From the NCBI GenBank assembly GCA_964016885.1, contig OZ024742.1, forward strand, positions 223,200,001 to 223,264,000: a stretch of 64,000 bases of DNA, in the 5' to 3' direction. The DNA comes from Eledone cirrhosa (Eukaryota). Shown piece by piece: positions 1-62,445 of the stretch (positions are counted from its first letter, which is position 1; each line of letters begins with the position of its first letter). A program made the translations under genes and the position numbers. A model generated the notes under the pieces. That model was not told the origin of the DNA and did no database searches. It worked only from the letters and a program-made list of their open reading frames with translations.

Positions 1-3000
1 CCACACCCTCTACACCAATGCCTCCACCACACCCTCTACACCAATCCCTCCAACACACCCTCTACACCAATCCCTCCACCACACCCTCTACACCAATCCC
101 TCCACCACATCCTCTACACCAATCCCTCCACCACATCCTCTACACCAATCCCTCCACCACACCCTCTACACCAATCCCTCCACCACACCCTCTACACCAA
201 TGCCTCCACCACACCCTCTACACCAATCCCTCCACCACACCCTCTACACCAATCCCTCCAACACACCCTCTACACCAATCCCTCCAACACACCCTCTACA
301 CCAATTCCTCCACCACACCCTCTACACCAATCCCTCCACCACACCCTCTACACCAATCCCTCCACCACACCCTCTACACCAATCCCTCCACCACACCCTC
401 TACACCAATCCCTCCACCACACCCTCTACACCAATCCCTCCACCACACCCTCTACACCAATCCCTCCACCACACCCTCTACACCAATCCCTCCACCACAC
501 CCTCTACACCAATGCCTCCACCACACCCTCTACACCAATCCCTCCACCACACCCTCTACACCAATGCCTCCACCACACCCTCTACACCAATCCCTCCACC
601 ACACCCTCTACACCAATGCCTCCACCACACCCTCTACACCAATCCCTCCACCACACCCTCTACACCAATGCCTCCACCACACCCTCTACACCAATCCCTC
701 CACCACACCCTCTACACCAATGCCTCCACCACACCCTCTACACCAATGCCTCCACCACACCCTCTACACCAATCCCTCCACCACACCCTCTACACCAATG
801 CCTCCACCACACCCTCTACACCAATCCCTCCACCACACCCTCTACACCAATGCCTCCACCACACCCTCTACACCAATCCCTCCACCACACCCTCTACACC
901 AATCCCTCCACCACACCCTCTACACCAATCCCTCCACCACATCCTCTACACCAATCCCTCCACCACACCCTCTACACCAATCCCTCCACCACACCCTCTA
1001 CACCAATGCCTCCACCACACCCTCTACACCAATCCCTCCACCACACCCTCTACACCAATTCCTCCACCACACCCTCTACACCAATCCCTCCACCACACCC
1101 TCTACACCAATGCCTCCACCACACCCTCTACACCAATTCCTCCACCACACCCTCTACACCAATGCCTCCACCACACCCTCTACACCAATCCCTCCACCAC
1201 ACCCTCTACACCAATGCCCTCCACCACACCCTCTACACCAATCCCTCCACCACACCCTCTACACCAATCCCTCCACCACACCCTCTACACCAATGCCTCC
1301 ACCACACCCTCTACACCAATCCCTCCACCACACCCTCTACACCAATGCCTCCACCACACCCTCTACACCAATCCCTCCACCACACCCTCTACACCAATGC
1401 CTCCACCACACCCTCTACACCAATCCCTCCACCACACCCTCTACACCAATTCCTCCACCACACCCTCTACACCAATCCCTCCACCACACCCTCTACACCA
1501 ATCCCTCCACCACACCCTCTACACCAATCCCTCCACCACATCCTCTACACCAATCCCTCCACCACACCCTCTACACCAATCCCTCCAACACACCCTCTAC
1601 ACCAATCCCTCCACCACACCCTCTACACCAATCCCTCCAACACACCCTCTACACCAATCCCTCCACCACACCCTCTACACCAATCCCTCCACCACATCCC
1701 TCTACACCAATCCCTCCACCACACCCTCTACACCAATTCCTCCACCACACCCTCTACACCAATCCCTCCACCACACCCTCTACACCAATCCCTCCACCAC
1801 ACCCTCTACACCAATCCCTCCAACACACCCTCTACACCAATCCCTCCACCACACCCTCTACACCAATCCCTCCACCACATCCTCTACACCAATCCCTCCA
1901 CCACACCCTCTACACCAATTCCTCCACCACACCCTCTACACCAATCCCTCCACCACACCCTCTACACCAATCCCTCCACCACACCCTCTACACCAATGCC
2001 TCCACCACACCCTCTACACCAATCCCTCCACCACACCCTCTACACCAATGCCCTCCACCACACCCTCTACACCAATCCCTCCACCACATCCTCTACACCA
2101 ATCCCTCCACCACACCCTCTACACCAATCCCTCCAACACACCCTCTACACCAATCCCTCCACCACACCCTCTACACCAATCCCTCCAACACACCCTCTAC
2201 ACCAATCCCTCCACCACACCCTCTACACCAATCCCTCCACCACATCCTCTACACCAATCCCTCCACCACACCCTCTACACCAATCCCTCCAACACACCCT
2301 CTACACCAATCCCTCCACCACACCCTCTACACCAATCCCTCCACCACATCCTCTACACCAATCCCTCCACCACACCCTCTACACCAATCCCTCCAACACA
2401 CCCTCTACACCAATCCCTCCACCACACCCTCTACACCAATCCCTCCAACACATCCTCTACACCAATCCCTCCAACACACCCTCTACACCAATCCCTCCAA
2501 CACATCCTCTACACCAATCCCTCCAACACACCCTCTACACCAATCCCTCCACCACATCCTCTACACCAATCCCTCCACCACACCCTCTACACCAATCCCT
2601 CCAACACACCCTCTACACCAATCCCTCCACCACACCCTCTACACCAATCCCTCCACCACATCCTCTACACCAATCCCTCCACCACACCCTCTACACCAAT
2701 CCCTCCAACACACCCTCTACACCAATCCCTCCACCACACCCTCTACACCAATCCCTCCACCACATCCTCTACACCAATCCCTCCACCACACCCTCTACAC
2801 CAATCCCTCCAACACACCCTCTACACCAATCCCTCCACCACACCCTCTACACCAATCCCTCCACCACACCCTCTACACCAATCCCTCCACCACACCCTCT
2901 ACACCAATCCCTCCAACACACCCTCTACACCAATGCCTCCACCACACCCTCTACACCAATCCCTCCACCACACCCTCTACACCAATCCCTCCACCACATC

Positions 3001-5850
3001 CTCTACACCAATGCCTCCACCACACCCTCTACACCAATCCCTCCACCACACCCTCTACACCAATGCCCTCCACCACACCCTCTACACCAATCCCTCCACC
3101 ACATCCTCTACACCAATGCCTCCACCACACCCTCTACACCAATCCCTCCAACACACCCTCTACACCAATGCCTCCACCACACCCTCTACACCAATCCCTC
3201 CACCACATCCTCTACACCAATGCCTCCACCACACCCTCTACACCAATCCCTCCAACACACCCTCTACACCAATGCCTCCACCACACCCTCTACACCAATC
3301 CCTCCACCACACCCTCTACACCAATCCCTCCACCACACCCTCTACACCAATCCCTCCAACACACCCTCTACACCAATGCCTCCACCACACCCTCTACACC
3401 AATCCCTCCACCACACCCTCTACACCAATCCCTCCACCACACCCTCTACACCAATCCCTCCAACACACCCTCTACACCAATCCCTCCACCACACCCTCTA
3501 CACCAATCCCTCCACCACATCCTCTACACCAATGCCTCCACCACACCCTCTACACCAATCCCTCCACCACACCCTCTACACCAATCCCTCCACCACACCC
3601 TCTACACCAATGCCTCCACCACACCCTCTACACCAATGCCTCCACCACACCCCTCTACACCAATCCCTCCAACACACCCTCTACACCAATCCCTCCACCA
3701 CACCCTCTACACCAATCCCTCCAACACACCCTCTACACCAATGCCTCCACCACACCCTCTACACCAATCCCTCCACCACATCCTCTACACCAATGCCTCC
3801 ACCACACCCTCTACACCAATCCCTCCAACACACCCTCTACACCAATCCCTCCAACACACCCTCTACACCAATCCCTCCACCACACCCTCTACACCAATCC
3901 CTCCAACACACCCTCTACACCAATCCCTCCACCACACCCTCTACACCAATGCCTCCACCACACCCTCTACACCAATGCCTCCACCACACCCTCTACACCA
4001 ATCCCTCCAACACACCCTCTACACCAATCCCTCCACCACACCCTCTACACCAATCCCTCCAACACACCCTCTACACCAATGCCTCCACCACACCCTCTAC
4101 ACCAATCCCTCCACCACATCCTCTACACCAATGCCTCCACCACACCCTCTACACCAATCCCTCCAACACACCCTCTACACCAATGCCTCCACCACACCCT
4201 CTACACCAATCCCTCCAACACACCCTCTACACCAATCCCTCCACCACACCCTCTACACCAATCCCTCCACCACACCCTCTACACCAATCCCTCCACCACA
4301 CCCTCTACACCAATTCCTCCACCACACCCTCTACACCAATCCCTCCACCACACCCTCTACACCAATCCCTCCACCACACCCTCTACACCAATCCCTCCAA
4401 CACATCCTCTACACCAATCCCTCCAACACACCCTCTACACCAATCCCTCCACCACACCCTCTACACCAATCCCTCCACCACACCCTCTACACCAATCCCT
4501 CCAACACATCCTCTACACCAATCCCTCCAACACATCCTCTACACCAATCCCTCCAACACACCCTCTACACCAATCCCTCCACCACACCCTCTACACCAAT
4601 CCCTCCACCACACCCTCTACACCAATCCCTCCACCACACCCTCTACACCAATCCCTCCACCACACCCTCTACACCAATCCCTCCACCACACCCTCTACAC
4701 CAATCCCTCCACCACACCCTCTACATCAATGCCTCCACCACACCCTCTACACCAATTCCTCCACCACACCCTCTACACCAATCCCTCCACCACACCCTCT
4801 ACACCAATCCCTCCACCACACCCTCTACACCAATTCCTCCACCACACCCTCTACACCAATCCCTCCACCACACCCTCTACACCAATCCCTCCACCACACC
4901 CTCTACACCAATCCCTCCACCACACCCTCTACACCAATCCCTCCACCACACCCTCTACACCAATCCCTCCACCACACCCTCTACACCAATCCCTCCAACA
5001 CACCCTCTACACCAATTCCTCCACCACACCCTCTACACCAATCCCTCCACCACACCCTCTACACCAATCCCTCCACCACATCCTCTACACCAATCCCTCC
5101 AACACACCCTCTACACCAATTCCTCCACCACACCCTCTACACCAATCCCTCCACCACACCCTCTACACCAATCCCTCCACCACATCCTCTACACCAATCC
5201 CTCCACCACACCCTCTACACCAATCCCTCCACCACACCCTCTACACCAATCCCTCCACCACACCCTCTACACCAATCCCTCCACCACATCCTCTACACCA
5301 ATCCCTCCAACACACCCTCTACACCAATCCCTCCACCACACCCTCTACACCAATCCCTCCACCACATCCTCTACACCAATCCCTCCAACACACCCTCTAC
5401 ACCAATGCCTCCACCACACCCTCTACACCAATTCCTCCACCACACCCTCTACACCAATCCCTCCACCACACCCTCTACACCAATCCCTCCACCACACCCT
5501 CTACACCAATCCCTCCACCACATCCTCTACACCAATCCCTCCAACACACCCTCTACACCAATCCCTCCAACACACCCTCTACACCAATCCCTCCACCACA
5601 CCCTCTACACCAATCCCTCCAACACACCCTCTACACCAATCCCTCCACCACACCCTCTACACCAATCCCTCCACCACACCCTCTACACCAATGCCTCCAC
5701 CACACCCTCTACACCAATCCCTCCAACACACCCTCTACACCAATCCCTCCAACACACCCTCTACACCAATTCCTCCACCACACCCTCTACACCAATCCCT
5801 CCACCACACCCTCTACACCAATGCCTCCACCATACCCTTTACACCAATCC
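1..5850. repeat. 26-bp tandem satellite (CCACCACACCCTCTACACCAATCCCT)n, roughly 225 copies, truncated by the window start
   Basis: Direct periodicity. All three + frames give the same 26-aa cyclic peptide (3 x 26 nt). The array decays into a diverged C/A-rich seed at about 5830-5960. Confidence 0.97.
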
Positions 5851-6010
5851 CCCCACCCTCTACTCTACAACCATCACCACACCCTCTACATTACAACCTC
5901 CAACACACCCACTACAACCTCCACAATACCTCTACAATAATTCTTCCACCCCTCCTCTACAACCATTCCTTACTCAACAAACAAGACGAGAGTCTGTATG
6001 GGTCAATTGA

Positions 6011-11635: not shown

Positions 11636-11992
11636 ACATATGGATCGACAGACAGACAGACAGGCAAACAGACTGTTAAGGAATATCATTACTTTATGGA
11701 TAATTCCTTTCCAAAGAATTGTCTGACCTTCAGTGGAACTCCCCAATCAACCAGTGATTCCTGTTAAAGGAACAGTGTTGGGCTTATTGGCTGATTGAAG
11801 GAATTAATTGATATTCTATTGAATTTTAATACTGAGTTATCTTGCAGAGATGTAGAACAAGCTATTGCTTTTGTTGTTGGTGTTGGTAGTGTTGTTGTTA
11901 GTGGGGGTGCTGCTGTTTGTGATGGTGTTACTGCTGTTGGTGGTGATGCTGTTCTTACTGCTACTGTTGTTTGTGGTGTTAGTGCTGCTGTT

Positions 11993-14900
11993 GGTGGTAC
12001 TACTGTTACTGCTGTTGGTGGTACTACTGTTACTGTTGTTGGTGGTACTACTGTTACTGCTGTTGGTGGTACTACTGTTACTGTTGTTGGTGGTACTACT
12101 GTTACTGCTGTTGGTGGTACTACTGTTACTGTTGTTGGTGGTACTACTGCTACTGCTGTTGGTGGTACTACTGCTACTGTTGTTGGTGGTACTACTGTTA
12201 CTGCTGTTGGTGGTACTACTGTTACTGTTGTTGGTGGTACTACTGTTACTGCTGTTGGTGGTACTACTGTTACTGCTGTTGGTGGTACTACTGTTACTGG
12301 TGTTGGTGGTACTACTGTTACTGTTGTTGGTGGTACTACTGTTACTGCTGTTGGTGGTACTACTGTTACTGGTGTTGGTGGTACTACTGTTACTGCTGTT
12401 GGTGGTACTACTGTTACTGGTGTTGGTGGTACTACTATTACTGCTGTTGGTGGTACTACTGTTACTGGTGTTGGTGGTACTACTGTTACTGCTGTTGGTG
12501 GTACTACTGCTACTGCTGTTGGTGGTACTACTGTTACTGGTGTTGGTGGTACTACTGTTACTGCTGTTGGTGGTACTACTGTTACTGCTGTTGGTGGTAC
12601 TACTGTTACTGCTGTTGGTGGTACTACTGCTACTGCTGTTGGTGGTACTACTGTTACTGCTGTTGGTGGTACTACTGTTACTGCTGTTGGTGGTACTACT
12701 GCTACTGCTGTTGGTGGTACTACTGTTACTGCTGTTGGTGGTACTACTGCTACTGCTGTTGGTGGTACTACTGTTACTGCTGTTGGTGGTACTACTGCTA
12801 CTGGTGTTGGTGGTACTACTGTTACTGCTGTTGGTGGTACTACTGTTACTGTTGTTGGTGGTACTACTGTTACTGCTGTTGGTGGTACTACTGTTACTGC
12901 TGTTGGTGGTACTACTGTTACTGCTGTTGGTGGTACTACTGTTACTGGTGTTGGTGGTACTACTGTTACTGCTGTTGGTGGTACTACTGTTACTGCTGTT
13001 GGTGGTACTACTGTTACTGTTGTTGGTGGTACTACTGCTACTGTTGTTGGTGGTACTACTGTTACTGCTGTTGGTGGTACTACTGCTACTGTTGTTGGTG
13101 GTACTACTGTTACTGGTGTTGGTGGTACTACTGTTACTGCTGTTGGTGGTACTACTGTTACTGCTGTTGGTGGTACTACTGTTACTGCTGTTGGTGGTAC
13201 TACTGTTACTGGTGTTGGTGGTACTACTGTTACTGTTGTTGGTGGTACTACTGTTACTGGTGTTGGTGGTACTACTGTTACTGCTGTTGGTGGTACTACT
13301 GCTACTGGTGTTGGTGGTACTACTGTTACTGCTGTTGGTGGTACTACTGTTACTGCTGTTGGTGGTACTACTGTTACTGCTGTTGGTGGTACTACTGTTA
13401 CTGCTGTTGGTGGTACTACTGTTACTGCTGTTGGTGGTACTACTGTTACTGTTGTTGGTGGTACTACTGTTACTGGTGTTGGTGGTACTACTGTTACTGC
13501 TGTTGGTGGTACTACTGTTACTGCTGTTGGTGGTACTACTGTTACTGCTGTTGGTGGTACTACTGCTACTGCTGTTGGTGGTACTACTGCTACTGTTGTT
13601 GGTGGTACTACTGTTACTGCTGTTGGTGGTACTACTGTTACTGGTGTTGGTGGTACTACTGTTACTGCTGTTGGTGGTACTACTGTTACTGCTGTTGGTG
13701 GTACTACTGTTACTGGTGTTGGTGGTACTACTGTTACTGTTGTTGGTGGTACTACTGTTACTGGTGTTGGTGGTACTACTGTTACTGCTGTTGGTGGTAC
13801 TACTGTTACTGCTGTTGGTGGTACTACTGTTACTGTTGTTGGTGGTACTACTNNNNNNNNNNNNNNNNNNNNNNNNNNNNNNNNNNNNNNNNNNNNNNNN
13901 NNNNNNNNNNNNNNNNNNNNNNNNNNNNNNNNNNNNNNNNNNNNNNNNNNNNNNNNNNNNNNNNNNNNNNNNNNNNNNNNNNNNNNNNNNNNNNNNNNNN
14001 NNNNNNNNNNNNNNNNNNNNNNNNNNNNNNNNNNNNNNNNNNNNNNNNNNNNCTACTGTTACTGCTGTTGGTGGTACTACTGTTACTGGTGTTGGTGGTA
14101 CTACTGTTACTGCTGTTGGTGGTACTACTGTTACTGCTGTTGGTGGTACTACTGTTACTGCTGTTGGTGGTACTACTGTTACTGCTGTTGGTGGTACTAC
14201 TGTTACTGGTGTTGGTGGTACTACTGCTACTGGTGTTGGTGGTACTACTGTTACTGTTGTTGGTGGTACTACTGCTACTGCTGTTGGTGGTACTACTGTT
14301 ACTGCTGTTGGTGGTACTACTGTTACTGCTGTTGGTGGTACTACTGTTACTGCTGTTGGTGGTACTACTGCTACTGCTGTTGGTGGTACTACTGTTACTG
14401 CTGTTGGTGGTACTACTGTTACTGGTGTTGGTGGTACTACTGTTACTGCTGTTGGTGGTACTACTGTTACTGCTGTTGGTGGTACTACTGTTACTGCTGT
14501 TGGTGGTACTACTGTTACTGCTGTTGGTGGTACTACTGTTACTGCTGTTGGTGGTACTACTGTTACTGCTGTTGGTTGGTACTACTGTTACTGCTTGTTG
14601 GTGGTACTACTGTTACTGCTGTTGGTGGTACTACTGTTACTGCTGTTGGTGGTACTACTGTTACTGGCTGTTGGTGGTACTACTGTTACTGCTTGTTGGT
14701 GGTACTACTGCTACTGCTGTTGGTGGTACTACTGCTACTGCTGTTGGTGGTACTACTGTTACTGCTGTTGGTGGTACTACTGTTACTGCTGTTGGTGGTA
14801 CTACTGTTACTGCTGTTGGTGGTACTACTGTTACTGCTGTTGGTGGTACTACTGTTACTGCTTGTTGGTGGTACTACTGTTACTGCTGTTGGTGGTACTA

Positions 14901-17900
14901 CTGCTACTGCTGTTGGTGGTACTACTGCTACTGCTGTTGGTGGTACTACTGTTACTGCTGTTGGTGGTACTACTGCTTACTGCTGTTGGTGTACTACTTA
15001 CTGCTGTTGGTGGTACTACTGTACTGCTGTTGGTGGTACTACTGTTACTGTTGTTGGTGGTACTACTGTTACTGCTGTTGGTGGTACTACTGCTACTGCT
15101 GTTGGTGGTACTACTGTTACTGTTGTTGGTGGTACTACTGTTACTGCTGTTGGTGGTACTACTGTTACTGTTGTTGGTGGTACTACTGTTACTGTTGTTG
15201 GTGGTACTACTGTTACTGCTGTTGGTGGTACTACTGTTACTGCTGTTGGTGGTACTACTGTTACTGCTGTTGGTGGTACTACTGTTACTGCTGTTGGTGG
15301 TACTACTGTTACTGCTGTTGGTGGTACTACTGTTACTGCTGTTGGTGGTACTACTGTTACTGTTGTTGGTGGTACTACTGTTACTGTTGTTGGTGGTACT
15401 ACTGTTACTGCTGTTGGTGGTACTACTGTTACTGCTGTTGGTGGTACTACTGTTACTGCTGTTGGTGGTACTACTGTTACTGTTGTTGGTGGTACTACTG
15501 TTACTGCTGTTGGTGGTACTACTGTTACTGCTGTTGGTGGTACTACTGTTACTGCTGTTGGTGGTACTACTGTTACTGTGTTGGTGGTACTACTGTTACT
15601 GTGTTGGTGGTACTACTGTTACTGCTGTTGGTGGTACTACTGTTACTGCTGTTGGTGGTACTACTGTTACTGGTTGTTGGTGGTACTACTGTTACTGCTG
15701 TTGGTGGTACTACTGTTACTGCTGTTGGTGGTACTACTGTTACTGTGTTGGTGGTACTACTGTTACTGCTGTTGGTGGTACTACTGTTACTGCTGTTGGT
15801 GGTACTACTGTTACTGCTGTTGGTGGTACTACTGTTACTGTTGTTGGTGGTACTACTGTTACTGCTGTTGGTGGTACTACTGTTACTGCTGTTGGTGGTA
15901 CTACTGTTACTGCTGTTGGTGGTACTACTGCTACTGCTGTTGGTGGTACTACTGTTACTGCTGTTGGTGGTACTACTGCTACTGCTGTTGGTGGTACTAC
16001 TGTTACTGCTGTTGGTGGTACTACTGTTACTGCTGTTGGTGGTACTACTGTTACTGCTGTTGGTGGTACTACTGTTACTGCTGTTGGTGGTACTACTGTT
16101 ACTGCTGTTGGTGGTACTACTGTTACTGCTGTTGGTGGTACTACTGTTACTGTGTTGGTGGTACTACTGTTACTGCTGTTGGTGGTACTACTGTTACTGC
16201 TGTTGGTGGTACTACTGTTACTGCTGTTGGTGGTACTACTGTTACTGCTGTTGGTGGTACTACTGTTACTGCTGTTGGTGGTACTACTGTTACTGCTGTT
16301 GGGTGGTACTACTGTTACTGCTGTTGGTGGTACTACTGTTACTGCTGTTGTTGGTGGTACTACTGTTACTGCTGTTGGTGGTACTACTGTTACTGCTGTT
16401 GGTGGTACTACTGTTACTGCTGTTGGTGGTACTACTGTTACTGCTGTTGGTGGTACTACTGTTACTGCTGTTGGTGGTACTACTGTTACTGCTGTTGGTG
16501 GTACTACTGTTACTGCTGTTGGTGGTACTACTGTTACTGCTGTTGGTGGTACTACTGCTACTGCTGTGGTGGTACTACTGTACTGCTGTTGGTGGTACTA
16601 CTGCTACTGCTGTTGGTGGTACTACTGTTACTGCTGTTGGTGGTACTACTGTTACTGCTGTTGGTGGTACTACTGTTACTGCTGTTGGTGGTACTACTGT
16701 TACTGCTGTTGGTGGTACTACTGTTACTGCTGTTGGTGGTACTACTGTTACTGCTGTTGGTGGTACTACTGTTACTGCTGTTGGTGGTACTACTGTTACT
16801 GTGTTGGTGGTACTACTGTTACTGCTGTGGTGGTACTACTGTTACTGCTGTTGGTGGTACTACTGTTACTGCTGTTGGTGGTACTACTGTTACTGCTGTT
16901 GGTGGTACTACTGTTACTGCTGTTGGTGGTACTACTGTTACTGTGTTGGTGGTACTACTGTTACTGCTGTGGTGGTACTACTGTTACTGCTGTTGGTGGT
17001 ACTACTGTTACTGTTGTTGGTGGTACTACTGTTACTGCTGTTGGTGGTACTACTGTTACTGCTGTTGGTGGTACTACTGTTACTGCTGTTGGTGGTACTA
17101 CTGTTACTGCTGTTGGTGGTACTACTGTTACTGTGTTGGTGGTACTACTGTTACTGCTGTTGGTGGTACTACTGTTACTGCTGTTGGTGGTACTACTGCT
17201 ACTGCTGTTGGTGGTACTACTGTTACTGCTGTTGGTGGTACTACTGTTACTGCTGTTGGTGGTACTACTGTTACTGTGTTGGTGGTACTACTGTTACTGT
17301 GTTGGTGGTACTACTGCTACTGCTGTTGGTGGTACTACTGCTACTGCTGTTGGTGGTACTACTGTTACTGCTGTTGGTGGTACTACTGTTACTGCTGTTG
17401 GTGGTACTACTGTTACTGCTGTTGGTGGTACTACTGTTACTGTTGTTGGTGGTACTACTGCTTACTGCTGTTGGTGGTACTACTGTTACTGCTGTTGGTG
17501 GTACTACTGTTACTGGTGTTGGTGGTACTACTGTTACTGCTGTTGGTGGTACTACTGTTACTGTGTTGGTGGTACTACTGCTACTGCTGTTGGTGGTACT
17601 ACTGCTACTGCTGTTGGTGGTACTACTGTTACTGCTGTTGGTGGTACTACTGTTACTGCTGTTGGTGGTACTACTGTTACTGTTGTTGTGGTACTACTGT
17701 TACTGTGTTGGTGGTACTACTGTTACTGCTGTTGGTGGTACTACTGTTACTGCTGTTGGTGGTACTACTGTTACTGCTGTTGGTGGTACTACTGTTACTG
17801 CTGTTGGTGGTACTACTGCTTACTGTTGTTGGTGGTACTACTGTTACTGCTGTTGGTGGTACTACTGTTACTGTTGTTGGTGGTACTACTGTTACTGTTG

Positions 17901-20900
17901 TTGGTGGTACTACTGTTACTGCTGTTGGTGGTACTACTGTTACTGGTGTTGGTGGTACTACTGTTACTGCTGTTGGTGGTACTACTGTTACTGTTGTTGG
18001 TGGTACTACTGTTACTGCTGTTGGTGGTACTACTGTTACTGCTGTTGGTGGTACTACTGTTACTGGTGTTGGTGGTACTACTGATACTGCTGTTGGTGGT
18101 ACTACTGTTACTGTTGTTGGTGGTACTACTGTTACTGCTGTTGGTGGTACTACTGTTACTGCTGTTGGTGGTACTACTGTTACTGTTGTTGGTGGTACTA
18201 CTGTTACTGGTGTTGGTGGTACTACTGTTACTGGTGTTGGTGGTACTACTGTTACTGGTGTTGGTGGTACTACTGTTACTGCTGTTGGTGGTACTACTGT
18301 TACTGGCTGTTGGTGGTACTACTGCTACTGGTGTTGGTGGTACTACTGTTACTGCTGTTGGTGGTACTACTGCTACTGTGTTGGTGGTACTACTGTTACT
18401 GCTGTTGGTGGTACTACTGCTACTGCTGTTGGTGGTACTACTGTTACTGTTGTTGGTGGTACTACTGCTACTGCTGTTGGTGGTACTACTGTTACTGGTG
18501 TTGGTGGTACTACTGTTACTGGTGTTGGTGGTACTACTGTTACTGGTGTTGGTGGTACTACTGTTACTGGTGTTGGTGGTACTACTGTTACTGCTGTTGG
18601 TGGTACTACTGCTACTGGTGTTGGTGGTACTACTGTTACTGCTGTTGGTGGTACTACTGCTACTGGTGTTGGTGGTACTACTGTTACTGCTGTTGGTGGT
18701 ACTACTGCTACTGCTGTTGGTGGTACTACTGCTACTGTTGTTGGTGGGTACTACTGCTACTGTTGTTGGTGGTACTACTGCAACTGCTGTTGTTGGTGGT
18801 ACTACTGTTACTGCTGTTGGTGGTACTACTGCTACTGCTGTTGGTGGTGGTACTACTGTTACTGTGTTGGTGGTACTACTGTTACTGTTGTTGGTGGTAC
18901 TACTGTTACTGTTGTTGGTGGTACTACTGCTACTGCTGTTGGTGGTGGTACTACTGTTACTGCTGTTGGTGGTACTACTGCTACTGTTGTTGGTGGTACT
19001 ACTGCTACTGCTGTTGTTGGTGGTACTACTGTTACTGCTGTTGGTGGTACTACTGCTACTGCTGTTGGTGGTGGTACTACTGTTACTGTTGTTGGTGGTA
19101 CTACTGTTACTGTTGTTGGTGGTACTACTGTTACTGCTGTTGGTGGTACTACTGTTACTGGTGTTGGTGGTACTACTGTTACTGCTGTTGGTGGTACTAC
19201 TGTTACTGCTGTTGGTGGTACTACTGTTACTGTTGTTGGTGGTACTACTGTTACTGTTGTTGGTGGTACTACTGTTACTGGTGTTGGTGGTACTACTGTT
19301 ACTGGTGTTGGTGGTACTACTGTTACTGCTGTTGGTGGTACTACTGTTACTGCTGTTGGTGGTACTACTGTTACTGCTGTTGGTGGTACTACTGTTACTG
19401 GTGTTGGTGGTACTACTGTTACTGCTGTTGGTGGTACTACTGTTACTGCTGTTGGGTGGTACTACTGTTACTGGTGTTGGTGGTACTACTGTTACTGCTG
19501 TTGGTGGTACTACTGTTACTGTTGTTGGTGGTACTACTGTTACTGGTGTTGGTGGTACTACTGTTACTGCTGTTGGTGGTACTACTGTTACTGTTGTTGG
19601 TGGTACTACTGTTACTGTTGTTGGTGGTACTACTGTTACTGCTGTTGGTGGTACTACTGTTACTGTTGTTGGTGGTACTACTGTTACTGTTGTTGGTGGT
19701 ACTACTGTTACTGCTGTTGGTGGTACTACTGTTACTGTTGTTGGTGGTACTACTGTTACTGCTGTTGGTGGTACTACTGTTACTGGTGTTGGTGGTACTA
19801 CTGCTACTGCTGTTGGTGGTACTACTGTTACTGCTGTTGGTGGTACTACTGCTACTGCTGTTGGTGGTACTACTGTTACTGCTGTTGGTGGTACTACTGT
19901 TACTGCTGTTGGTGGTACTACTGTTGCTGCTGTTGGTGGTACTACTGTTACTGCCGTTGGTGGTACTACTGTTACTGCTGTTGGTGGTACTACTGTTACT
20001 GTTGTTGGTGGTACTACTGTTACTGCTGTTGGTGGTACTACTGTTACTGCTGTTGGTGGTACTACTGTTACTGCTGTTGGTGGTACTACTGTTACTGGTG
20101 TTGGTGGTACTACTGCTACTGCTGTTGGTGGTACTACTGTTACTGCTGTTGGTGGTACTACTGCTACTGCTGTTGGTGGTACTACTGTTACTGCTGTTGG
20201 TGGTACTACTGTTACTGCTGTTGGTGGTACTACTGTTACTGCCGTTGGTGGTACTACTGTTACTGCTGTTGGTGGTACTACTGTTACTGTTGTTGGTGGT
20301 ACTACTGTTACTGCTGTTGGTGGTACTACTGTTACTGCTGTTGGTGGTACTACTGTTACTGGTGTTGGTGGTACTACTGCTACTGCTGTTGGTGGTACTA
20401 CTGTTACTGCTGTTGGTGGTACTACTGCTACTGCTGTTGGTGGTACTACTGTTACTGCTGTTGGTGGTACTACTGTTACTGCTGTTGGTGGTACTACTGT
20501 TACTGTTGTTGGTGGTACTACTGTTACTGGTGTTGGTGGTACTACTGTTACTGCTGTTGGTGGTACTACTGCTACTGCTGTTGGTGGTACTACTGTTACT
20601 GTTGTTGGTGGTACTACTGTTACTGCTGTTGGTGGTACTACTGTTACTGCTGTTGGTGGTACTACTGTTACTGCTGTTGGTGGTACTACTGTTACTGCTG
20701 TTGGTGGTACTACTGTTACTGGTGTTGGTGGTACTACTGCTACTGCTGTTGGTGGTACTACTGTTACTGCTGTTGGTGGTACTACTGCTACTGCTGTTGG
20801 TGGTACTACTGTTACTGCTGTTGGTGGTACTACTGTTACTGCTGTTGGTGGTACTACTGTTACTGTTGTTGGTGGTACTACTGTTACTGGTGTTGGTGGT

Positions 20901-23900
20901 ACTACTGTTACTGCTGTTGGTGGTACTACTGCTACTGCTGTTGGTGGTACTACTGTTACTGTTGTTGGTGGTACTACTGTTACTGCTGTTGGTGGTACTA
21001 CTGTTACTGCTGTTGGTGGTACTACTGTTACTGCTGTTGGTGGTACTACTGTTACTGCTGTTGGTGGTACTACTGTTACTGGTGTTGGTGGTACTACTGT
21101 TACTGCTGTTGGTGGTACTACTGCTACTGCTGTTGGTGGTACTACTGCTACTGCTGTTGGTGGTACTACTGTTACTGCTGTTGGTGGTACTACTGTTACT
21201 GGTGTTGGTGGTACTACTGTTACTGGTGTTGGTGGTACTACTGTTACTGGTGTTGGTGGTACTACTGCTACTGCTGTAGGTGGTACTACTGCTACTGCTG
21301 TTGGTGGTACTACTGTTACTGCTGTTGGTGGTACTACTGTTACTGCTGTTGGTGGTACTACTGTTACTGCTGTTGGTGGTACTACTGTTACTGGTGTTGG
21401 TGGTACTACTGCTACTGCTGTTGGTGGTACTACTGCTACTGCTGTTGGTGGTACTACTGCTACTGTTGTTGGTGGTACTACTGTTACTGCTGTTGGTGGT
21501 ACTACTGCTACTGGTGTTGGTGGTACTACTGCTACTGTTGTTGGTGGTACTACTGCTACTGCTGTTGGTGGTGGTACTACTGTTACTGTTGTTGGTGGTA
21601 CTACTGTTACTGTTGTTGGTGGTACTACTGTTACTGTTGTTGGTGGTACTACTGTTACTGTTGTTGGTGGTACTACTGTTACTGCTGTTGGTGGTACTAC
21701 TGTTACTGTTGTTGGTGGTACTACTGTTACTGGTGTTGGTGGTACTACTGTTACTGCTGTTGGTGGTACTACTGTTACTGTTGTTGGTGGTACTACTGCT
21801 ACTGCTGTTGGTGGTACTACTGTTACTGCTGTTGGTGGTACTACTGCTACTGGTGTTGGTGGTACTACTGCTACTGCTGTTGGTGGTGGTACTACTGTTA
21901 CTGTTGTTGGTGGTACTACTGTTACTGCTGTTGGTGGTACTACTGTTACTGTTGTTGGTGGTACTACTGTTACTGTTGTTGGTGGTACTACTGTTACTGG
22001 TGTTGGTGGTACTACTGTTACTGGTGTTGGTGGTACTACTGTTACTGGTGTTGGTGGTACTACTGTTACTGGTGTTGGTGGTACTACTGTTACTGCTGTT
22101 GGTGGTACTACTGCTACTGGTGTTGGTGGTACTACTGTTACTGCTGTTGGTGGTACTACTGCTACTGGTGTTGGTGGTACTACTGTTACTGCTGTTGGTG
22201 GTACTACTGCTACTGCTGTTGGTGGTACTACTGCTACTGTTGTTGGTGGTACTACTGCAACTGCTGTTGTTGGTGGTACTACTGTTATTGCTGTTGGTGG
22301 TACTACTGCTACTGCTGTTGGTGGTGGTTACTACTGTTACTGTTGTTGGTGGTACTACTGTTACTGTTGTTGGTGGTACTACTGTTACTGTTGTTGGTGG
22401 TACTACTGCTACTGCTGTTGGTGGTGGTACTACTGTTACTGCTGTTGGTGGTACTACTGCTACTGTTGTTGGTGGTACTACTGCTACTGCTGTTGTTGGT
22501 GGTACTACTGTTATTGCTGTTGGTGGTACTACTGCTACTGCTGTTGGTGGTGGTACTACTGTTACTGTTGTTGGTGGTACTACTGTTACTGTTGTTGGTG
22601 GTACTACTGTTACTGCTGTTGGTGGTACTACTGTTACTGGTGTTGGTGGTACTACTGTTACTGCTGTTGGTGGTACTACTGTTACTGCTGTTGGTGGTAC
22701 TACTGTTACTGTTGTTGGTGGTACTACTGTTACTGTTGTTGGTGGTACTACTGTTACTGGTGTTGGTGGTACTACTGTTACTGGTGTTGGTGGTACTACT
22801 GTTACTGGTGTTGGTGGTACTACTGTTACTGCTGTTGGTGGTACTACTGTTACTGCTGTTGGTGGTACTACTGTTACTGTTGTTGGTGGTACTACTGTTA
22901 CTGTTGTTGGTGGTACTACTGTTACTGGTGTTGGTGGTACTACTGTTACTGCTGTTGGTGGTACTACTGTTACTGCTGTTGGTGGTACTACTGTTACTGT
23001 TGTTGGTGGTACTACTGCTACTGCTGTTGGTGGTACTACTGTTACTGCTGTTGGTGGTACTACTGTTACTGCTGTTGGTGGTACTACTGTTACTGTTGTT
23101 GGTGGTACTACTGTTACTGCTGTTGGTGGTACTACTGTTACTGCCGTTGGTGGTTACTACTGTTACTGCTGTTGGTGGTACTACTGTTACTGTTGTTGGT
23201 GGTACTACTGTTACTGCTGTTGGTGGTACTACTGTTACTGCTGTTGGTGGTACTACTGTTACTGTTGTTGGTGGTACTACTGTTACTGCTGTTGGTGGTA
23301 CTACTGTTACTGTTGTTGGTGGTACTACTGTTACTGCTGTGGTGGTACTACTGCTACTGGTGTTGGTGGTACTACTGTTACTGTTGTTGGTGGTACTACT
23401 GTTACTGCTGTTGGTGGTACTACTGCTACTGCTGTTGGTGGTACTACTGTTACTGGTGTTGGTGGTACTACTGTTACTGCTGTTGGTGGTACTACTGTTA
23501 CTGGTGTTGGTGGTACTACTGTTACTGCTGTTGGTGGTACTACTGTTACTGCTGTTGGTGGTACTACTGTTACTGCTGTTGGTGGTACTACTGCTACTGC
23601 TGTTGGTGGTACTACTGTTACTGGTGTTGGTGGTACTACTGTTACTGCTGTTGGTGGTACTACTGTTACTGGTGTTGGTGGTACTACTGTTACTGCTGTT
23701 GGTGGTACTACTGTTACTGCTGTTGGTGGTACTACTGTTACTGTTGTTGGTGGTACTACTGTTACTGCTGTTGGTGGTACTACTGTTACTGGTGTTGGTG
23801 GTACTACTGTTACTGCTGTTGGTGGTACTACTGTTACTGCTGTTGGTGGTACTACTGTTACTGCTGTTGGTGGTACTACTGTTACTGTTGTTGGTGGTAC

Positions 23901-25280
23901 TACTGTTACTGCTGTTGGTGGTACTACTGTTACTGTTGTTGGTGGTACTACTGTTACTGCTGTTGGTGGTACTACTGTTACTGGTGTTGGTGGTACTACT
24001 GTTACTGGTGTTGGTGGTACTACTGTTACTGCTGTTGGTGGTACTACTGTTACTGCTGTTGGTGGTACTACTGTTACTGTTGTTGGTGGTACTACTGTTA
24101 CTGCTGTTGGTGGTACTACTGTTACTGCCGTTGGTGGTACTACTGTTACTGCTGTTGGTGGTACTACTGTTACTGTTGTTGGTGGTACTACTGTTACTGC
24201 TGTTGGTGGTACTACTGTTACTGCTGTTGGTGGTACTACTGTTACTGTTGTTGGTGGTACTACTGTTACTGCTGTTGGTGGTACTACTGTTACTGTTGTT
24301 GGTGGTACTACTGTTACTGCTGTTGGTGGTACTACTGCTACTGGTGTTGGTGGTACTACTGTTACTGTTGTTGGTGGTACTACTGTTACTGCTGTTGGTG
24401 GTACTACTGCTACTGCTGTTGGTGGTACTACTGTTACTGGTGTTGGTGGTACTACTGTTACTGCTGTTGGTGGTACTACTGTTACTGCTGTTGGTGGTAC
24501 TACTGTTACTGTTGTTGGTGGTACTACTGTTACTGCTGTTGGTGGTACTACTGTTACTGCCGTTGGTGGTACTACTGTTACTGCTGTTGGTGGTACTACT
24601 GTTACTGTTGTTGGTGGTACTACTGTTACTGCTGTTGGTGGTACTACTGTTACTGTTGTTGGTGGTACCACTGTTACTGCTGTTGGTGGTACTACTGTTA
24701 CTGCTGTTGGTGGTACTACTGTTACTGCTGTTGGTGGTACTACTGCTACTGGTGTTGGTGGTACTACTGTTACTGTTGTTGGTGGTACTACTGTTACTGG
24801 TGTTGGTGGTACTACTGTTACTGTTGGTGGTACTACTGTTACTGGTGTTGGTGGTACTACTGCTACTGTTGTTGGTGGTACTACTGCTACTGGTGTTGGT
24901 GGTACTACTGCTACTGGTGTTGGTGGTACTACTGTTACTGCTGTTGGTGGTACTACTGCTACTGCTGTTGGTGGTACTACTGTTACTGCTGTTGGTGGTA
25001 CTACTGCTACTGGTGTTGGTGGTACTACTGCTACTGGTGTTGGTGGTACTACTGTTACTGTTGTTGGTGGTACTACTGTTACTGCTGTTGGTGGTACTAC
25101 TGTTACTGTTGTTGGTGGTACTACTGTTACTGCTGTTGGTGGTACTACTGCTACTGGTGTTGGTGGTACCACTGTTACTGCTGTTGGTGGTACTACTGTT
25201 ACTGCTGTTGGTGGTACTACTGTTACTGGTGTTGGTGGTACTACTGTTACTGCTGTTGGTGGTACTACTGTTACTGGTGG
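11993..25280. repeat. 24-bp satellite (GGTGGTACTACTGTTACTGCTGTT)n, more than 13 kb, spanning an assembly gap
   Basis: Direct periodicity. Variants GCT/GTT/GGT occur at two positions. The left end grades into a degenerate triplet tract at 11865-11990. Confidence 0.97.
13853..14052. other. Assembly gap (200 N)
   Basis: Run of N characters. Confidence 1.
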
Positions 25281-37559: not shown

Positions 37560-40246
37560 AACACACACACTTACACCAGTGTATGCACTCATACGTGTAT
37601 GTACACACACACTTACACCAGTGTATGCACTCATACGTGTATGTACACACACACTTACACCAGTGTATGCACTCATACGTGTATGTACACACACACTTAC
37701 ACCAGTGTATGCACTCATACGTGTATGTACACACACACACACTTACACCAGCGTATGCACTCATACGTGTATGTACACACACACTTACACCAGTGTATGC
37801 ACTCATACGTGTATGTACACACACACTTACACCAGTGTATGCACTCATACGTGTATGTACACACACTTACACCAGTGTATGCACTCATACGTGTATGTAC
37901 ACACACACTTACACCAGTGTATGCACTCATACGTGTATGTACACACACACACACTTACACCAGTGTATGCACTCATACGTGTATGTACACACACACTTAC
38001 ACCAGTGTATGCACTCATACGTGTATGTACACACACACTTACACCAGTGTATGCACTCATACGTGTATGTACACACACACACACTTACACCAGCGTATGC
38101 ACTCATACGTGTATGTACACACACACTTACACCAGTGTATGCACTCATACGTGTATGTACACACACACTTACACCAGTGTATGCACTCATACGTGTATGT
38201 ACACACACACTTACACCAGTGTATGCACTCATACGTGTATGTACACACACACTTACACCAGTGTATGCACTCATACGTGTATGTACACACACACTTACAC
38301 CAGTGTATGCACTCATACGTGTATGTACACACACACTTACACCAGTGTATGCACTCATACGTGTATGTACACACACACTTACACCAGTGTATGCACTCAT
38401 ACGTGTATGTACACACACACTTACACCAGTGTATGCACTCATACGTGTATGTACACACACACTTACACCAGCGTATGCACTCATACGTGTATGTACACAC
38501 ACACTTACACCAGTGTATGCACTCATACGTGTATGTACACACACACACACTTACACCAGTGTATGCACTCATACGTGTATGTACACACACACACACTTAC
38601 ACCAGTGTATGCACTCATACGTGTATGTACACACACACTTACACCAGTGTATGCACTCATACGTGTATGTACACACACACTTACACCAGTGTATGCACTC
38701 ATACGTGTATGTACACACACACACACTTACACCAGTGTATGCACTCATACGTGTATGTACACACACACTTACACCAGTGTATGCACTCATACGTGTATGT
38801 ACACACACACTTACACCAGTGTATGCACTCATACGTGTATGTACACACACACTTACACTAGCGTATGCACTCATACGTGTATGTACACACACACTTACAC
38901 CAGTGTATGCACTCATACGTGTATGTACACACACACTTACACTAGCGTATGCACTCATACGTGTATGTACACACACACTTACACCAGCGTATGCACTCAT
39001 ACGTGTATGTACACACACACTTACACCAGTGTATGCACTCATACGTGTATGTACACACACACTTACACCAGTGTATGCACTCATACGTGTATGTACACAC
39101 ACACTTACACTAGCGTATGCACTCATACGTGTATGTACACACACACTTACACCAGTGTATGCACTCATACGTGTATGTACACACACACTTACACTAGCGT
39201 ATGCACTCATACGTGTATGTACACACACACTTACACCAGTGTATGCACTCATACGTGTATGTACACACACACTTACACCAGTGTATGCACTCATACGTGT
39301 ATGTACACACACACTTACACCAGCGTATGCACTCATACGTGTATGTACACACACACTTACACCAGTGTATGCACTCATACGTGTATGTACACACACACTT
39401 ACACCAGTGTATGCACTCATACGTGTATGTACACACACACTTACACCAGTGTATGCACTCATACGTGTATGTACACACACACTTACACCAGTGTATGCAC
39501 TCATACGTGTATGTACACACACACTTACACCAGTGTATGCACTCATACGTGTATGTACACACACACTTACACCAGCGTATGCACTCATACGTGTATGTAC
39601 ACACACACTTACACCAGTGTATGCACTCATACGTGTATGTACACACACACACACTTACACCAGTGTATGCACTCATACGTGTATGTACACACACACACAC
39701 TTACACCAGTGTATGCACTCATACGTGTATGTACACACACACTTACACCAGTGTATGCACTCATACGTGTATGTACACACACACTTACACCAGTGTATGC
39801 ACTCATACGTGTATGTACACACACACACACTTACACCAGTGTATGCACTCATACGTGTATGTACACACACACTTACACCAGTGTATGCACTCATACGTGT
39901 ATGTACACACACACTTACACCAGTGTATGCACTCATACGTGTATGTACACACACACTTACACCAGTGTATGCACTCATACGTGTATGTACACACACACTT
40001 ACACTAGCGTATGCACTCATACGTGTATGTACACACACACTTACACCAGTGTATGCACTCATACGTGTATGTACACACACACTTACACTAGCGTATGCAC
40101 TCATACGTGTATGTACACACACACTTACACCAGCGTATGCACTCATACGTGTATGTACACACACACTTACACCAGTGTATGCACTCATACGTGTATGTAC
40201 ACACACACTTACACCAGTGTATGCACTCATACGTGTATGTACACAC
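37560..40246. repeat. 42-bp minisatellite (ACACACACACTTACACCAGTGTATGCACTCATACGTGTATGT)n, about 63 copies
   Basis: Direct periodicity with a variable (CA)n sub-tract (40/42/46-bp units). Confidence 0.97.
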
Positions 40247-54106: not shown

Positions 54107-54476
54107 TTCCCATATGAGCAAGACATGGTCAGCCAACCGGCTACTGCCCACAACAGGACAACCCGTCTAACCCATGCTAGCGTGGAAGAACGGACGTAAA
54201 ACGGTGATGATGATGATGATATATATATAGTGGTATTAGCTTAGTAGAAATATCCAAGGTACAGAGCAACTCAAGTCTGTAGGATGAGTTTTAATATAAT
54301 TATTGGTGCCTTTGTAGTAACTGGCCTTGATAATATATATATATATGTAGAAGTTCTATTTAAATTGTTGGGATACAACAAGCAAATATTTTTATAACTG
54401 ATATAAAACACTCAACAAATATTTGGAGTAAAAATACGATATTAACAAATGGAAACTATATTTATAAAACCATATT

Positions 54477-54541
54477 TATTTCATTATACATATTTCAAGG
54501 ACACCAAGTTAAATTATGGTGTGCTTTCATCAGATAAAATA
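54477..54541 (-). ncRNA. Type I hammerhead ribozyme (left arm)
   Basis: Exact mirror image of 54608-54672. Confidence 0.8.
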
Positions 54542-54607
54542 TAATATAGATCAGTTTTATAAATAAATGGGTATGTCAATATTTATTTATAAAACTGATC
54601 TATATTA

Positions 54608-54672
54608 TATTTTATCTGATGAAAGCACACCATAATTTAACTTGGTGTCCTTGAAATATGTATAATGAAATA
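54608..54672 (+). ncRNA. Type I hammerhead ribozyme (right arm), predicted cleavage after 54664
   Basis: Stem I UAUUUUAU/AUGAAAUA. CUGAUGA at 54616-54622. Stem II AAGCACACCA/UGGUGUCCUU (9/10 pairs). GAAA at 54653-54656. Near-palindromic stem III AUAUGUAU. AUA^ cleavage triplet. Confidence 0.82.
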
Positions 54673-54708
54673 AATATGGTTTTATAAATATAGTTTCCAT
54701 TTGTTAAT

Positions 54709-54787
<79 letters not shown>

Positions 54788-59919: not shown

Positions 59920-61105
59920 ATCTGTAAGTTATGATGTTACCCTCCTATCCATCTGTAAGTTATGATGTTACCCTCCTATCCATCTGTAAGTTGTGATGTT
60001 ACCCTCCTATCCATCTGTAAGTTATGATGTTACCCTCCTATCCATCTGTAAGTTATGATGTTACCCTCCTATCCATCTGTAAGTTATGATGTTACCCTCC
60101 CACCCATATGTAAGTTATGATGCTACCCTCCCACCCATCTGTAAGTTATGATGCTACCCTCCTATCCGTCTGTAAGTTATGATGCTACCCTCCCACCCAT
60201 CTGTAAGTTATGATACTACCCTCCCACCCATCTGTAAGTTATGATGCTACCCTCCCACCCATCTGTAAGTTATGATGCTACCCTCCCACCCATCTGTAAG
60301 TTATGATGCTACCCTCCCACCCATCTGTAAGTTATGATGCTACCCTCCCACCCATCTGTAAGTTATGATGCTACCCTCCCACCCATCTGTAAGTTATGAT
60401 GCTACCCTCCCACCCATCTGTAAGTTATGATGCTACCATTCCATCCATCTGTAAGTTATGATGCTACCCTCCCACCCATCTGTAAGTTATGATGCTACCC
60501 TCCCACCCATCTGTAAGTTATGATGCTACCCTCCCACCCATCTGTAAGTTATGATGCTACCCTCCCACCCATCTGTAAGTTATGATGCTACCCTCCCACC
60601 CATCTGTAAGTTATGATGCTACCCTCCCACCCATCTGTAAGTTATGATGCTACCCTCCCACCCATCTGTAAGTTATGATGCTACCCTCCCACCCATCTGT
60701 AAGTTATGATGCTACCCTCCCACCCATCTGTAAGTTATGATGCTACCATTCCATCCATCTGTAAGTTATGATGCTACCCTCCCACCCATCTGTAAGTTAT
60801 GATGCTACCCTCCCACCCATCTGTAAGTTATGATGCTACCCTCCCACCCATCTGTAAGTTATGATGCTACCCTCCCACCCATCTGTAAGTTATGATGCTA
60901 CCCTCCCACCCATCTGTAAGTTATGATGCTACCCTCCCACCCATCTGTAAGTTATGATGCTACCCTCCCACCCATCTGTAAGTTATGATGCTACCCTCCC
61001 ACCCATCTGTAAGTTATGATGCTACCCTCCCACCCATCTGTAAGTTATGATGCTACCATTCCATCCATCTGTAAGTTATGATGCTACCATTCCATCTATC
61101 TGTAA
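59920..61105. repeat. 31-bp minisatellite (ATCTGTAAGTTATGATGCTACCCTCCCACCC)n, about 38 copies
   Basis: Direct periodicity with a 310-bp higher-order period. Confidence 0.96.
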
Positions 61106-61605: not shown

Positions 61606-61679
61606 ATCTTTCACATGCGTGTAAGTATGTGTAGAAGTGTCACGTATTCATACATGTGTGTGTATTGGAAAGTTGATAC

Positions 61680-61727
<48 letters not shown>

Positions 61728-61836
61728 TTTTGTATCACCAAAGAAATACGGTTTTAGGAAGCTGTAGTTATGCAAACAGAGGGGGGGAGTGGGGGCTAAC
61801 GCCCTCTGGTGATGTCCAACAGAAGCAAGGGGGACA

Positions 61837-61880
61837 ACCGTCTATGCATTTCAGGCTTAACTGGCCTTCATCAGAACGGT
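61837..61880 (-). ncRNA. Type I hammerhead ribozyme with palindromic stem III, predicted cleavage between 61843 and 61842
   Basis: ACCGUU-CUGAUGA-AGGC CAGUUAA GCCU-GAAA-UGCA-UA^GACGGU. All core nucleotides and three stems are intact. Confidence 0.9.
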
Positions 61881-61967
61881 CCCTCCCACCGCTTGTGACT
61901 GATGGACTAGCAGACAGGCGAGAATATATACTTTTCTTGTCTGTGTGTAAATGAGGTGATTAATCTC

Positions 61968-61975
61968 ATTTGCAT
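61968..61975 (-). promoter_or_regulatory. Octamer motif ATGCAAAT upstream of the hammerhead (candidate snRNA-type promoter element)
   Basis: ATTTGCAT on +. Function is inferred only by analogy with newt satellite 2. Confidence 0.35.
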
Positions 61976-62085
61976 ATGAAGCTGCATAAGTTGGCTCAAC
62001 TTATAATTAAAAAGAAATAGGATTTCACTTCAAACATAGCTTTATACAATATGTATGAATATTTTGTATCTCCAAAGAAATACGG

Positions 62086-62139
<54 letters not shown>

Positions 62140-62141
<2 letters not shown>

Positions 62142-62445
62142 AGGCACACGGCTTAGTGGTTAGAGCATTGGCCTTGCAATCGAAAGGTTGTGAGTTCAAT
62201 TCTCAGACCGGGTGATGTGTTGTTTCCTTGAATAAGACACTTTATTTCACATTGCTCCAGTTTACTCAGCTGTAGAAATGAGATGATAAGGACTGGGGTC
62301 CCTATCATTCCACTGCAAAGTGGTCGTGGAGGTGCCACGGCAAAAAAGCACCCAGCACTCACTGAAATCAAGCCAGAATCAGTTCCTGTCCCACCCTTGC
62401 AAGCAGGGAAAAACGGATGTAAAATGAAATGATGATGATGATGAT
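62140..62445 (+). mobile_element. SINE family C with internal deletion
   Basis: GGAGGCACACGGCTTAGTGGTTAGAGC ... GGATGTAAAATGAAA(TGA)n. Confidence 0.88.

What the first reader, a model, noticed from the sequence alone, without database searches (positions are those of the whole stretch)
61724..62089. Terminally redundant 334-nt hammerhead 'retrozyme' inserted in (TA)n: likely footprint of a circular RNA
Seen: a non-coding island between two (TA)n tracts has a 32-bp direct repeat at both ends (period 334 nt). Its minus strand carries a complete type I hammerhead: CUGAUGA and GAAA cores, stem II AGGC/GCCU, self-complementary stem III AUGCAU and an AUA^ site. Stem I extends imperfectly over 61814-61907, and further hairpins are present (e.g. 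ATAAGTTG/CAACTTAT at 61986-62004). Established: metazoan non-LTR retrozymes and newt satellite 2 (monomer about 330 bp) are hammerhead-containing monomers processed from multimeric transcripts; retrozymes form circular RNAs and are thought to be mobilised by Penelope-like RTs. Minimal hammerheads with palindromic stem III can cleave as dimers. Inference: this 1.1-mer with an internal ribozyme is what reverse transcription slightly more than once round a circular template would leave. I do not know of this family being described in cephalopods.
Basis: partly seen in the sequence, partly recalled or inferred. Interest (0 to 1): 0.9.

Follow-up and report, generated by a model that had tools for sequence, protein, structure and literature searches.

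The report
Penelope-copied retrozyme with two start sites
This is one dead-end copy of a roughly 330-base non-coding repeat with a conserved predicted self-cutting RNA fold, present in well over a thousand places in this animal genome, whose fixed ends and back-to-back arms show the footprint of Penelope-type jumping genes, likely copying a small RNA circle from two set start points.

Summary
Observation confirmed: 32-bp terminal repeat (31/32), period 334, minus-strand type I hammerhead. It is one copy of a dispersed family (453 exact 35-nt core matches, 0 control) with four subfamilies whose stems covary. Copies are not circularly permuted. RNA 3' ends sit at two fixed sites about 47 nt apart (116 of 143 arms), usually against (TA)n; 5' ends are scattered. 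Arms are often joined head to head (73 versus 4), and such pairs use one site each (47 of 51). This is the Penelope-like element footprint. The 32-bp redundancy is just one truncation point, not proof of a circle. A circular template is still the best reading: units within an insertion mostly share one haplotype, and reverse transcription crosses the cut site with no stop or scar. Each unit carries an octamer-like motif plus TATA matching host U6 promoters. No RNA data; cleavage, circle and partner enzyme are untested. The scan already noted the same anatomy and promoter in other families of this genome. Verdict: new member of the non-LTR retrozymes.

The parts
61724..62089 (-). One single-armed, 5'-truncated insertion of the retrozyme, 1.1 units; about 4% diverged from the family majority (14 derived sites)
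61724..61755 (-). 3' copy of the 32-bp repeat; holds the hairpin (61750-61732) just upstream of fixed 3' end site A, which runs into (TA)n
62058..62089 (-). 5' copy of the 32-bp repeat: start of a second pass through the unit, ending at a variable truncation point
61837..61880 (-). Type I hammerhead: stem I 6 bp (closing pair U-G here, C-G in the family), CUGAUGA, stem II 4 bp, GAAA, palindromic AUGCAU, predicted cut between 61843 and 61842
   Evidence: cleavage untested
61814..61907 (-). Extended stem I (61907-61899 with 61822-61814); would hold the two ends of a cut monomer together
   Evidence: role inferred
61965..61976 (-). TATGCAAATGAG, identical to the element at about -77 of a host U6 gene; candidate internal promoter element
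   Evidence: function untested
61925..61931 (-). TATA-like box, 45 nt from the octamer here and 43 nt in 38 of 42 family copies; predicts a start near 61900, about 58 nt before the cut
   Evidence: start site inferred
62002..62021 (-). Pyrimidine-rich stretch that is fixed 3' end site B in other copies (internal in this copy)
61986..62004 (-). Hairpin present in the majority sequences of subfamilies young, B and C
61676..61723 (.). (TA)n target on the RNA 3' side; no target duplication can be read
62091..62139 (.). (TA)n on the RNA 5' side

Best explanation
It is a 5'-truncated copy of a dispersed, non-coding hammerhead repeat family whose ends carry the Penelope-like element footprint, and it was likely made by a borrowed Penelope-type reverse transcriptase copying a monomeric, likely circular RNA into a cut in (TA)n. 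Shown: the family, the covarying fold, two fixed RNA 3' ends (A and B, about 47 nt apart), scattered 5' ends, head-to-head arms that use one site each, shared haplotypes within an insertion, and a U6-like motif pair in every unit. Inferred steps: rare copies with a promoter and two ribozymes are transcribed from the internal cassette; two cuts release a monomer; a host ligase closes it; a Penelope (probably Neptune-type) protein cuts both strands in (TA)n and primes one DNA end at site A and the other at site B; the two cDNAs run 0.2 to 2.7 rounds and join by microhomology, or one joins straight to the target, as here.
For: Family: 2375 candidates; 453 exact core matches, 0 control; 886 exact 3'-motif matches, 0 control. 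Fixed 3' ends: 116 of 143 arms against 12% expected; (TA)n at 86 of 143 3' flanks and 16 of 143 5' flanks; 73 head-to-head versus 4 tail-to-tail pairs. A+B in 44 of 47 classed pairs, 47 of 51 after removing duplicates and slightly widening the windows. These are the traits listed for Penelope-like elements (PMC8557442), and two internal start sites make the tail in vitro (PMC11167929). A Neptune-like element in this genome shows A+B in 3 of 3 inverted pairs held. For a monomeric template: derived alleles are shared 14% (83 direct pairs) and 16% (101 inverted pairs) within insertions against 3% between them; multi-site haplotypes are mostly the same in all units of an insertion; 5' ends near the cut in 2 of 143 and 0 of 64 arms, and no indel at the 5 positions round the cut in 178 passes; only one array longer than 3 units turned up in two searches that scored 40 candidates each, yet the unit persisted through subfamilies about 23% apart. 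Fold: 8 of 21 pairs changed on both sides, 93% of cells paired, 19-43% when slid; circular fold z about -7 to -8.6. Related retrozymes are abundant circles in coral and mussel (PMC7229834).
Against: No RNA evidence, no cleavage assay. Some neighbouring units differ in haplotype (L065, L075, L079; arms of L005), and one 11-unit array has unlike units with a 5-unit repeat, so multimeric or switched templates, or local expansion, also occur. No clear stall at one round (p 0.06). No A-to-G editing signature (142 A>G vs 163 T>C, p 0.17). A weak excess of 5' ends near the predicted start (9 of 43, p 0.044) suggests some uncut linear templates; the Anolis element prefers uncut RNA in vitro. The number of pairs changed on both sides does not beat the shuffle (280 of 500) and reflects about six subfamily events. 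The opposite strand folds as well. 21 of 72 arm pairs had one end outside both sites. The promoter spacing is 43 against 46-48 in U6, and 14 of 25 subfamily B copies have a T5 run that could stop RNA polymerase III. No autonomous partner shares the sequence.
Confidence: 0.6

Rival explanations
1. Same family and same Penelope-type machinery, but the template is linear: an uncut read-through multimer, or a cut monomer copied again by end-to-end template jumps. Circles may exist but are a side product.
For: Uncut RNA is the main substrate of the Anolis element in vitro (PMC11167929). Discordant neighbouring units, the heterogeneous 11-unit array, a weak 5'-end excess at the predicted start, and one clear template switch (L047).
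Against: No stop or scar at the cut site; long source arrays are nearly absent from the assembly searched; units are mostly homogeneous within an insertion. Arrays could be missing from the assembly, and precise jumps would leave no scar.
Confidence: 0.3
2. The unit is the terminal repeat (pLTR) of an autonomous Penelope element, and these copies are its truncated 3' fragments.
For: Fixed 3' ends, tail, inversions and (TA)n targets are all Penelope traits; vertebrate retrozymes match pLTRs (10.64898/2026.07.22.740005).
Against: Upstream of a full unit the copies run into another unit, an inverted arm or unrelated flank; flank searches of 198 arms against 14 Penelope-like 3' regions showed no shared junction; a profile of four subfamilies found no terminal-repeat match in 48 Penelope-bearing loci, only separate insertions. 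These loci are a small part of 10,596 endonuclease candidates. An ancient pLTR origin is not excluded.
Confidence: 0.07
3. A satellite or SINE-like repeat with a chance or dead hammerhead look-alike.
For: No Rfam hammerhead match; 8 of 9 predicted frog retrozyme dimers did not cleave in vitro.
Against: Core kept and stems I and II changed in matching pairs across subfamilies; more distant families keep the layout with a different palindrome, ACUAGU.
Confidence: 0.03

Closest known systems
Metazoan non-LTR retrozymes (Cervera and de la Pena 2020, PMC7229834; Li, Clavereau and Pollet 2026, 10.64898/2026.07.22.740005)
   Same: Canonical type I hammerhead in a non-coding unit of 150-450 bp, GC under 50%, strongly self-paired, tandem copies, Penelope-like elements in the same genome.
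   Different: Here copies are mostly dispersed 0.2-2.7-mers with mapped fixed ends and two opposed arms; the sections read propose Penelope mobilisation but do not map ends. Expression and circles are shown there, untested here.
Penelope-like elements, Neptune/Poseidon clades (Craig 2021, PMC8557442; Frangieh 2024, PMC11167929)
   Same: 5' truncation, partial tandems, inverted 5'-truncated copy, tail at one end, two internal start sites, (TA)n or AT-rich targets, hammerhead in the repeat.
   Different: No ORF; canonical rather than minimal hammerhead; tail about 47 nt rather than 30-40; the strict pairing of one A end with one B end was not quantified in the parts read (in vitro no strand difference was seen).
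Newt satellite 2 (330 bp, PMC2114352 listing; snRNA-type internal promoter as cited in PMC2220036; Coats 1994 itself not held)
   Same: Unit length, hammerhead with palindromic stem III, internal snRNA-type promoter signal.
   Different: Satellite 2 is cited as polymerase II-driven; here the motif matches host U6 and U6atac, not U2, upstream DNA, and the polymerase is unknown. No sequence comparison was made.

Membership tests
Canonical type I hammerhead | CUGANGA and GAAA core with NUH triplet | tested here: met
   CUGAUGA, GAAA, AUA; AUC in 12 of 15 subfamily B copies aligned
Canonical type I hammerhead | Helix I about 6 bp, helix II 4 bp, helix III 1-2 bp with palindromic loop (PMC4209133) | tested here: met
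Canonical type I hammerhead | Compensatory changes in the helices | tested here: met
   2 of 6 pairs in helix I and 3 of 4 in helix II changed on both sides; few independent events
Canonical type I hammerhead | Match to an Rfam hammerhead model | tested here: not met
   this lowers assignment to a curated family, not the fold
Canonical type I hammerhead | Self-cleavage at the predicted site | not testable with these tools
   needs an assay
Non-LTR retrozyme | Non-coding 150-450 bp unit, GC under 50%, with type I hammerhead | tested here: met
   331-334 nt, 41.6% GC, no informative ORF
Non-LTR retrozyme | Tandem copies with at least two complete ribozymes | tested here: met
   Family level: 9 of 198 arms, plus one 11-unit array; not this copy
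Non-LTR retrozyme | Expressed as linear and circular monomer RNA | not testable with these tools
   no RNA holder listed
Penelope-mobilised element | Fixed 3' ends with optional tail, variable 5' truncation, inverted 5'-truncated copy, microsatellite target | tested here: met
Penelope-mobilised element | Sequence shared with an autonomous partner's terminal repeat | tested here: inconclusive
   none in 48 loci; one chimera with a Neptune-like 3' end (L047)
Autonomous Penelope-like element | ORF with reverse transcriptase and GIY-YIG endonuclease | tested here: not met
U6-type (type 3) promoter | Upstream element and TATA at host spacing | tested here: inconclusive
   motif matches host U6 -77 element (0 of 20000 shuffles) but spacing 43 against 46-48

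The most novel reading that the evidence does not exclude
A self-promoted ribozyme circle: each unit carries a U6-type promoter that survives transposition because it lies inside the circle, and a dimeric Neptune-type protein copies it from both ends of a double-strand cut in (TA)n, one subunit starting at site A and the other at site B. The A+B rule would then be the general cause of the one-sided Penelope tail.
Probability: 0.35. Interest if true: 0.8.

Novelty: new member of a known kind. Interest (0 to 1): 0.5.

Why it matters
How animal retrozymes get back into DNA is proposed but not shown in the papers read. This family gives fixed, countable predictions: two start sites, one per DNA end, a defined 330-nt circle, and an internal promoter. 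The same A+B rule would explain why Penelope insertions carry a tail at only one end. The window copy itself is an ordinary dead-end daughter, and this scan has already noted the same anatomy in other families.

Tried and rejected
Circular permutation of copies: rejected. Stall after one round: not significant. Pile-up or scar at the ribozyme cut: none. Partner search: the Neptune-like element beside L028 and L053 has its own different hammerhead, and its 3' region aligns to the unit no better than shuffles (111 of 300); 30 endonuclease loci and 16 long-ORF loci gave no terminal-repeat match; the flank search was confounded by other repeats. Site B as a polymerase III terminator: it coincides with a T6 run only in the young subfamily, so not general. 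Window copy as a daughter of the 11-unit array: 4-5 shared derived sites with its first unit, suggestive only. Sequencing runs: no RNA holder listed; three contig runs of one sample only repeat the genomic variation. Rfam: no hit. Earlier findings by sequence: none.

Full report
Observation. The copy folds better than shuffles (z -3.2), is 41.6% GC and has no informative ORF. Rfam has no hammerhead match. No tool names the organism; the genome is 3.0 Gb.

Family. The unit is a dispersed repeat: 2375 candidates, 40 scored, the best at 90-93% identity; 453 exact matches of a 35-nt core and 886 of a 32-nt 3' motif, controls 0. At about 4% divergence this implies well over a thousand units (inference). 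A looser core pattern exposed older subfamilies; their majority sequences are 88%, 84% and 77% identical to the young one and keep the same unit and ends (the oldest group had 6 copies there and 18 of 25). On 47 aligned copies, 8 of 21 pairs changed on both sides, 93% of cells pair, and slid controls pair 19-43%; cells beat 500 of 500 shuffles but the pair count does not (280 of 500), and the changes are about six subfamily events. Subfamily B has AUC at the cut in 12 of 15 copies. Majority units fold as branched circles with z -7 to -8.6; the opposite strand folds as well (40 shuffles each).

Ends. I mapped arms in loci taken from the first 100 listed of the 453 core matches and about half of the first 100 listed of the 886 motif matches, all on one contig, arms under 40 nt dropped. 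In the core sample 116 of 143 arms end, on the RNA 3' side, at site A (59) or site B (57), about 47 nt apart; 12% is expected if copies were circularly permuted. (TA)n follows 86 of 143 3' ends and 16 of 143 5' ends. 5' ends are scattered; 2 of 143 and 0 of 64 lie near the cut, and 178 passes over the cut show no indel at its 5 positions. Over both samples 73 arm pairs are head to head, 4 tail to tail, 7 direct; most junction gaps lie within a few bases of zero. Of classed head-to-head pairs 44 of 47 are A+B; 47 of 51 after removing duplicates and widening the windows slightly, with 21 of 72 pairs left unclassed. These are the listed traits of Penelope-like insertions, including a tail often at one end only (PMC8557442), and two internal start sites define that tail in vitro (PMC11167929). 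The window copy is a single A-start arm whose 5' end fell 32 nt into a second round.

Template. Units inside one insertion share derived alleles far more than units of different insertions (14% and 16% against 3%), and multi-site haplotypes are usually the same in all units and both arms. The longest arms are 2-2.7 units; one 11-unit array was found in two searches of 40 scored candidates each. Since each insertion is truncated, purely linear copying should shorten the family; a monomer copied more than once restores length and spreads new variants over all units (inference). That favours a circle or precise template jumps. Against it: a few discordant neighbours, the heterogeneous array, no significant stall at one round, no editing marks, and a weak excess of 5' ends at the predicted start. 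9 of 198 arms hold two whole ribozymes and could release a monomer; the window copy holds one.

Promoter. Every subfamily carries TATGCAAATGAG and a TATA box 43 nt on (38 of 42 copies measured; motif intact in 27 of 30, 2 of 4, 9 of 25 and 13 of 18; 0 of 20000 shuffles). The same element lies at -76 to -78 of the best host U6 genes with TATA at -30, a one-mismatch form precedes the best U6atac match, and the U2 upstream regions lack it; two other U6 matches lack it at that position. Spacing is 46-48 in U6, and a T5 run in 14 of 25 subfamily B copies argues against simple polymerase III read-through. Newt satellite 2 is cited as having an internal snRNA-type promoter (PMC2220036); the original paper is not held. 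Function is untested.

Partner. [quoted passage not shown] None shares the unit. One locus joins a ribozyme fragment to the last 25 nt of such an element through a short shared sequence (L047), a single hint that its enzyme handles this RNA.

Literature. Read: 10.64898/2026.07.22.740005 parts 1-3 of 5 (supplements closed, its species table could bear on taxon coverage); PMC11167929 parts 1-2 of 4; PMC8557442 passages and section 6; PMC7229834 passages, outline and sections 13, 14, 17 (supplements not read); PMC4209133 part 1 of 4; PMC13282606 and PMC2220036 passages; PMC1636495 abstract; PMC2114352 search listing. Searches listed no paper on a cephalopod retrozyme or on paired use of the two start sites; mussel retrozymes and a Penelope origin of animal retrozymes are in print. 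Earlier AI notes of this scan describe two-armed retrozymes with two fixed ends and snRNA-type promoters in other families of this genome; my end mapping and promoter comparison were done before I saw them, and they are not independent support.

Verdict. Real, well-supported retrozyme family, a new member of a known kind. Penelope-type mobilisation about 0.9; circle as the main template about 0.6. Interest 0.5.

Noticed in passing
window 54335-54715: A second, unrelated two-armed element between TA tracts: inverted arms each with a hammerhead-like core (54533-54485 minus, 54616-54664 plus).
   Followed up: no
window 62140-62240: tRNA-like stretch (25.2 bits, under the Rfam cut-off) right of the insertion; probably a tRNA-derived SINE.
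   Followed up: no
G000:C2:83920630-83923930 (L084, L124, L125): 11-unit array with a 5-unit higher-order repeat, 5'-truncated and ending at site A; the window copy shares 4-5 derived sites with its first unit.
   Followed up: partly
L047:1476-1600: Chimera: ribozyme fragment of this family joined directly to the 3' end of a Neptune-like element, then (TA)n; its 5' end lies at the predicted start site.
   Followed up: partly
L319:2174-2496; L318:7078-7703; L162:2740-3254; L139:2424-2910; L048: More distant hammerhead repeat families; those in L319, L318, L162 and L048 keep the octamer-like motif upstream and have the palindrome ACUAGU in place of AUGCAU; one has a 423-nt period.
   Followed up: partly
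L308, L309, L310, L092: Penelope-like elements with open frames of 938, 844 and 1096 aa, and a near-full broken one with A and B ends in 3 of 3 inverted pairs; candidate partners.
   Followed up: partly
L324, L325, L326-L343, L359: Host U6 and U6atac upstream DNA share TATG(C/G)(A/T)AAT(G/T)AG at about -77 and TATA at -30; a usable description of this animal's U6 promoter.
   Followed up: partly
L199-L214: Subfamily B has an AUC cut triplet in 12 of 15 copies; PMC1636495 (abstract) calls AUC essentially absent from natural hammerheads.
   Followed up: no
window 1-5857, 11985-25276, 37561-40246, 59920-61105: Long homogeneous minisatellites with periods 26, 24, 42 and 31.
   Followed up: no
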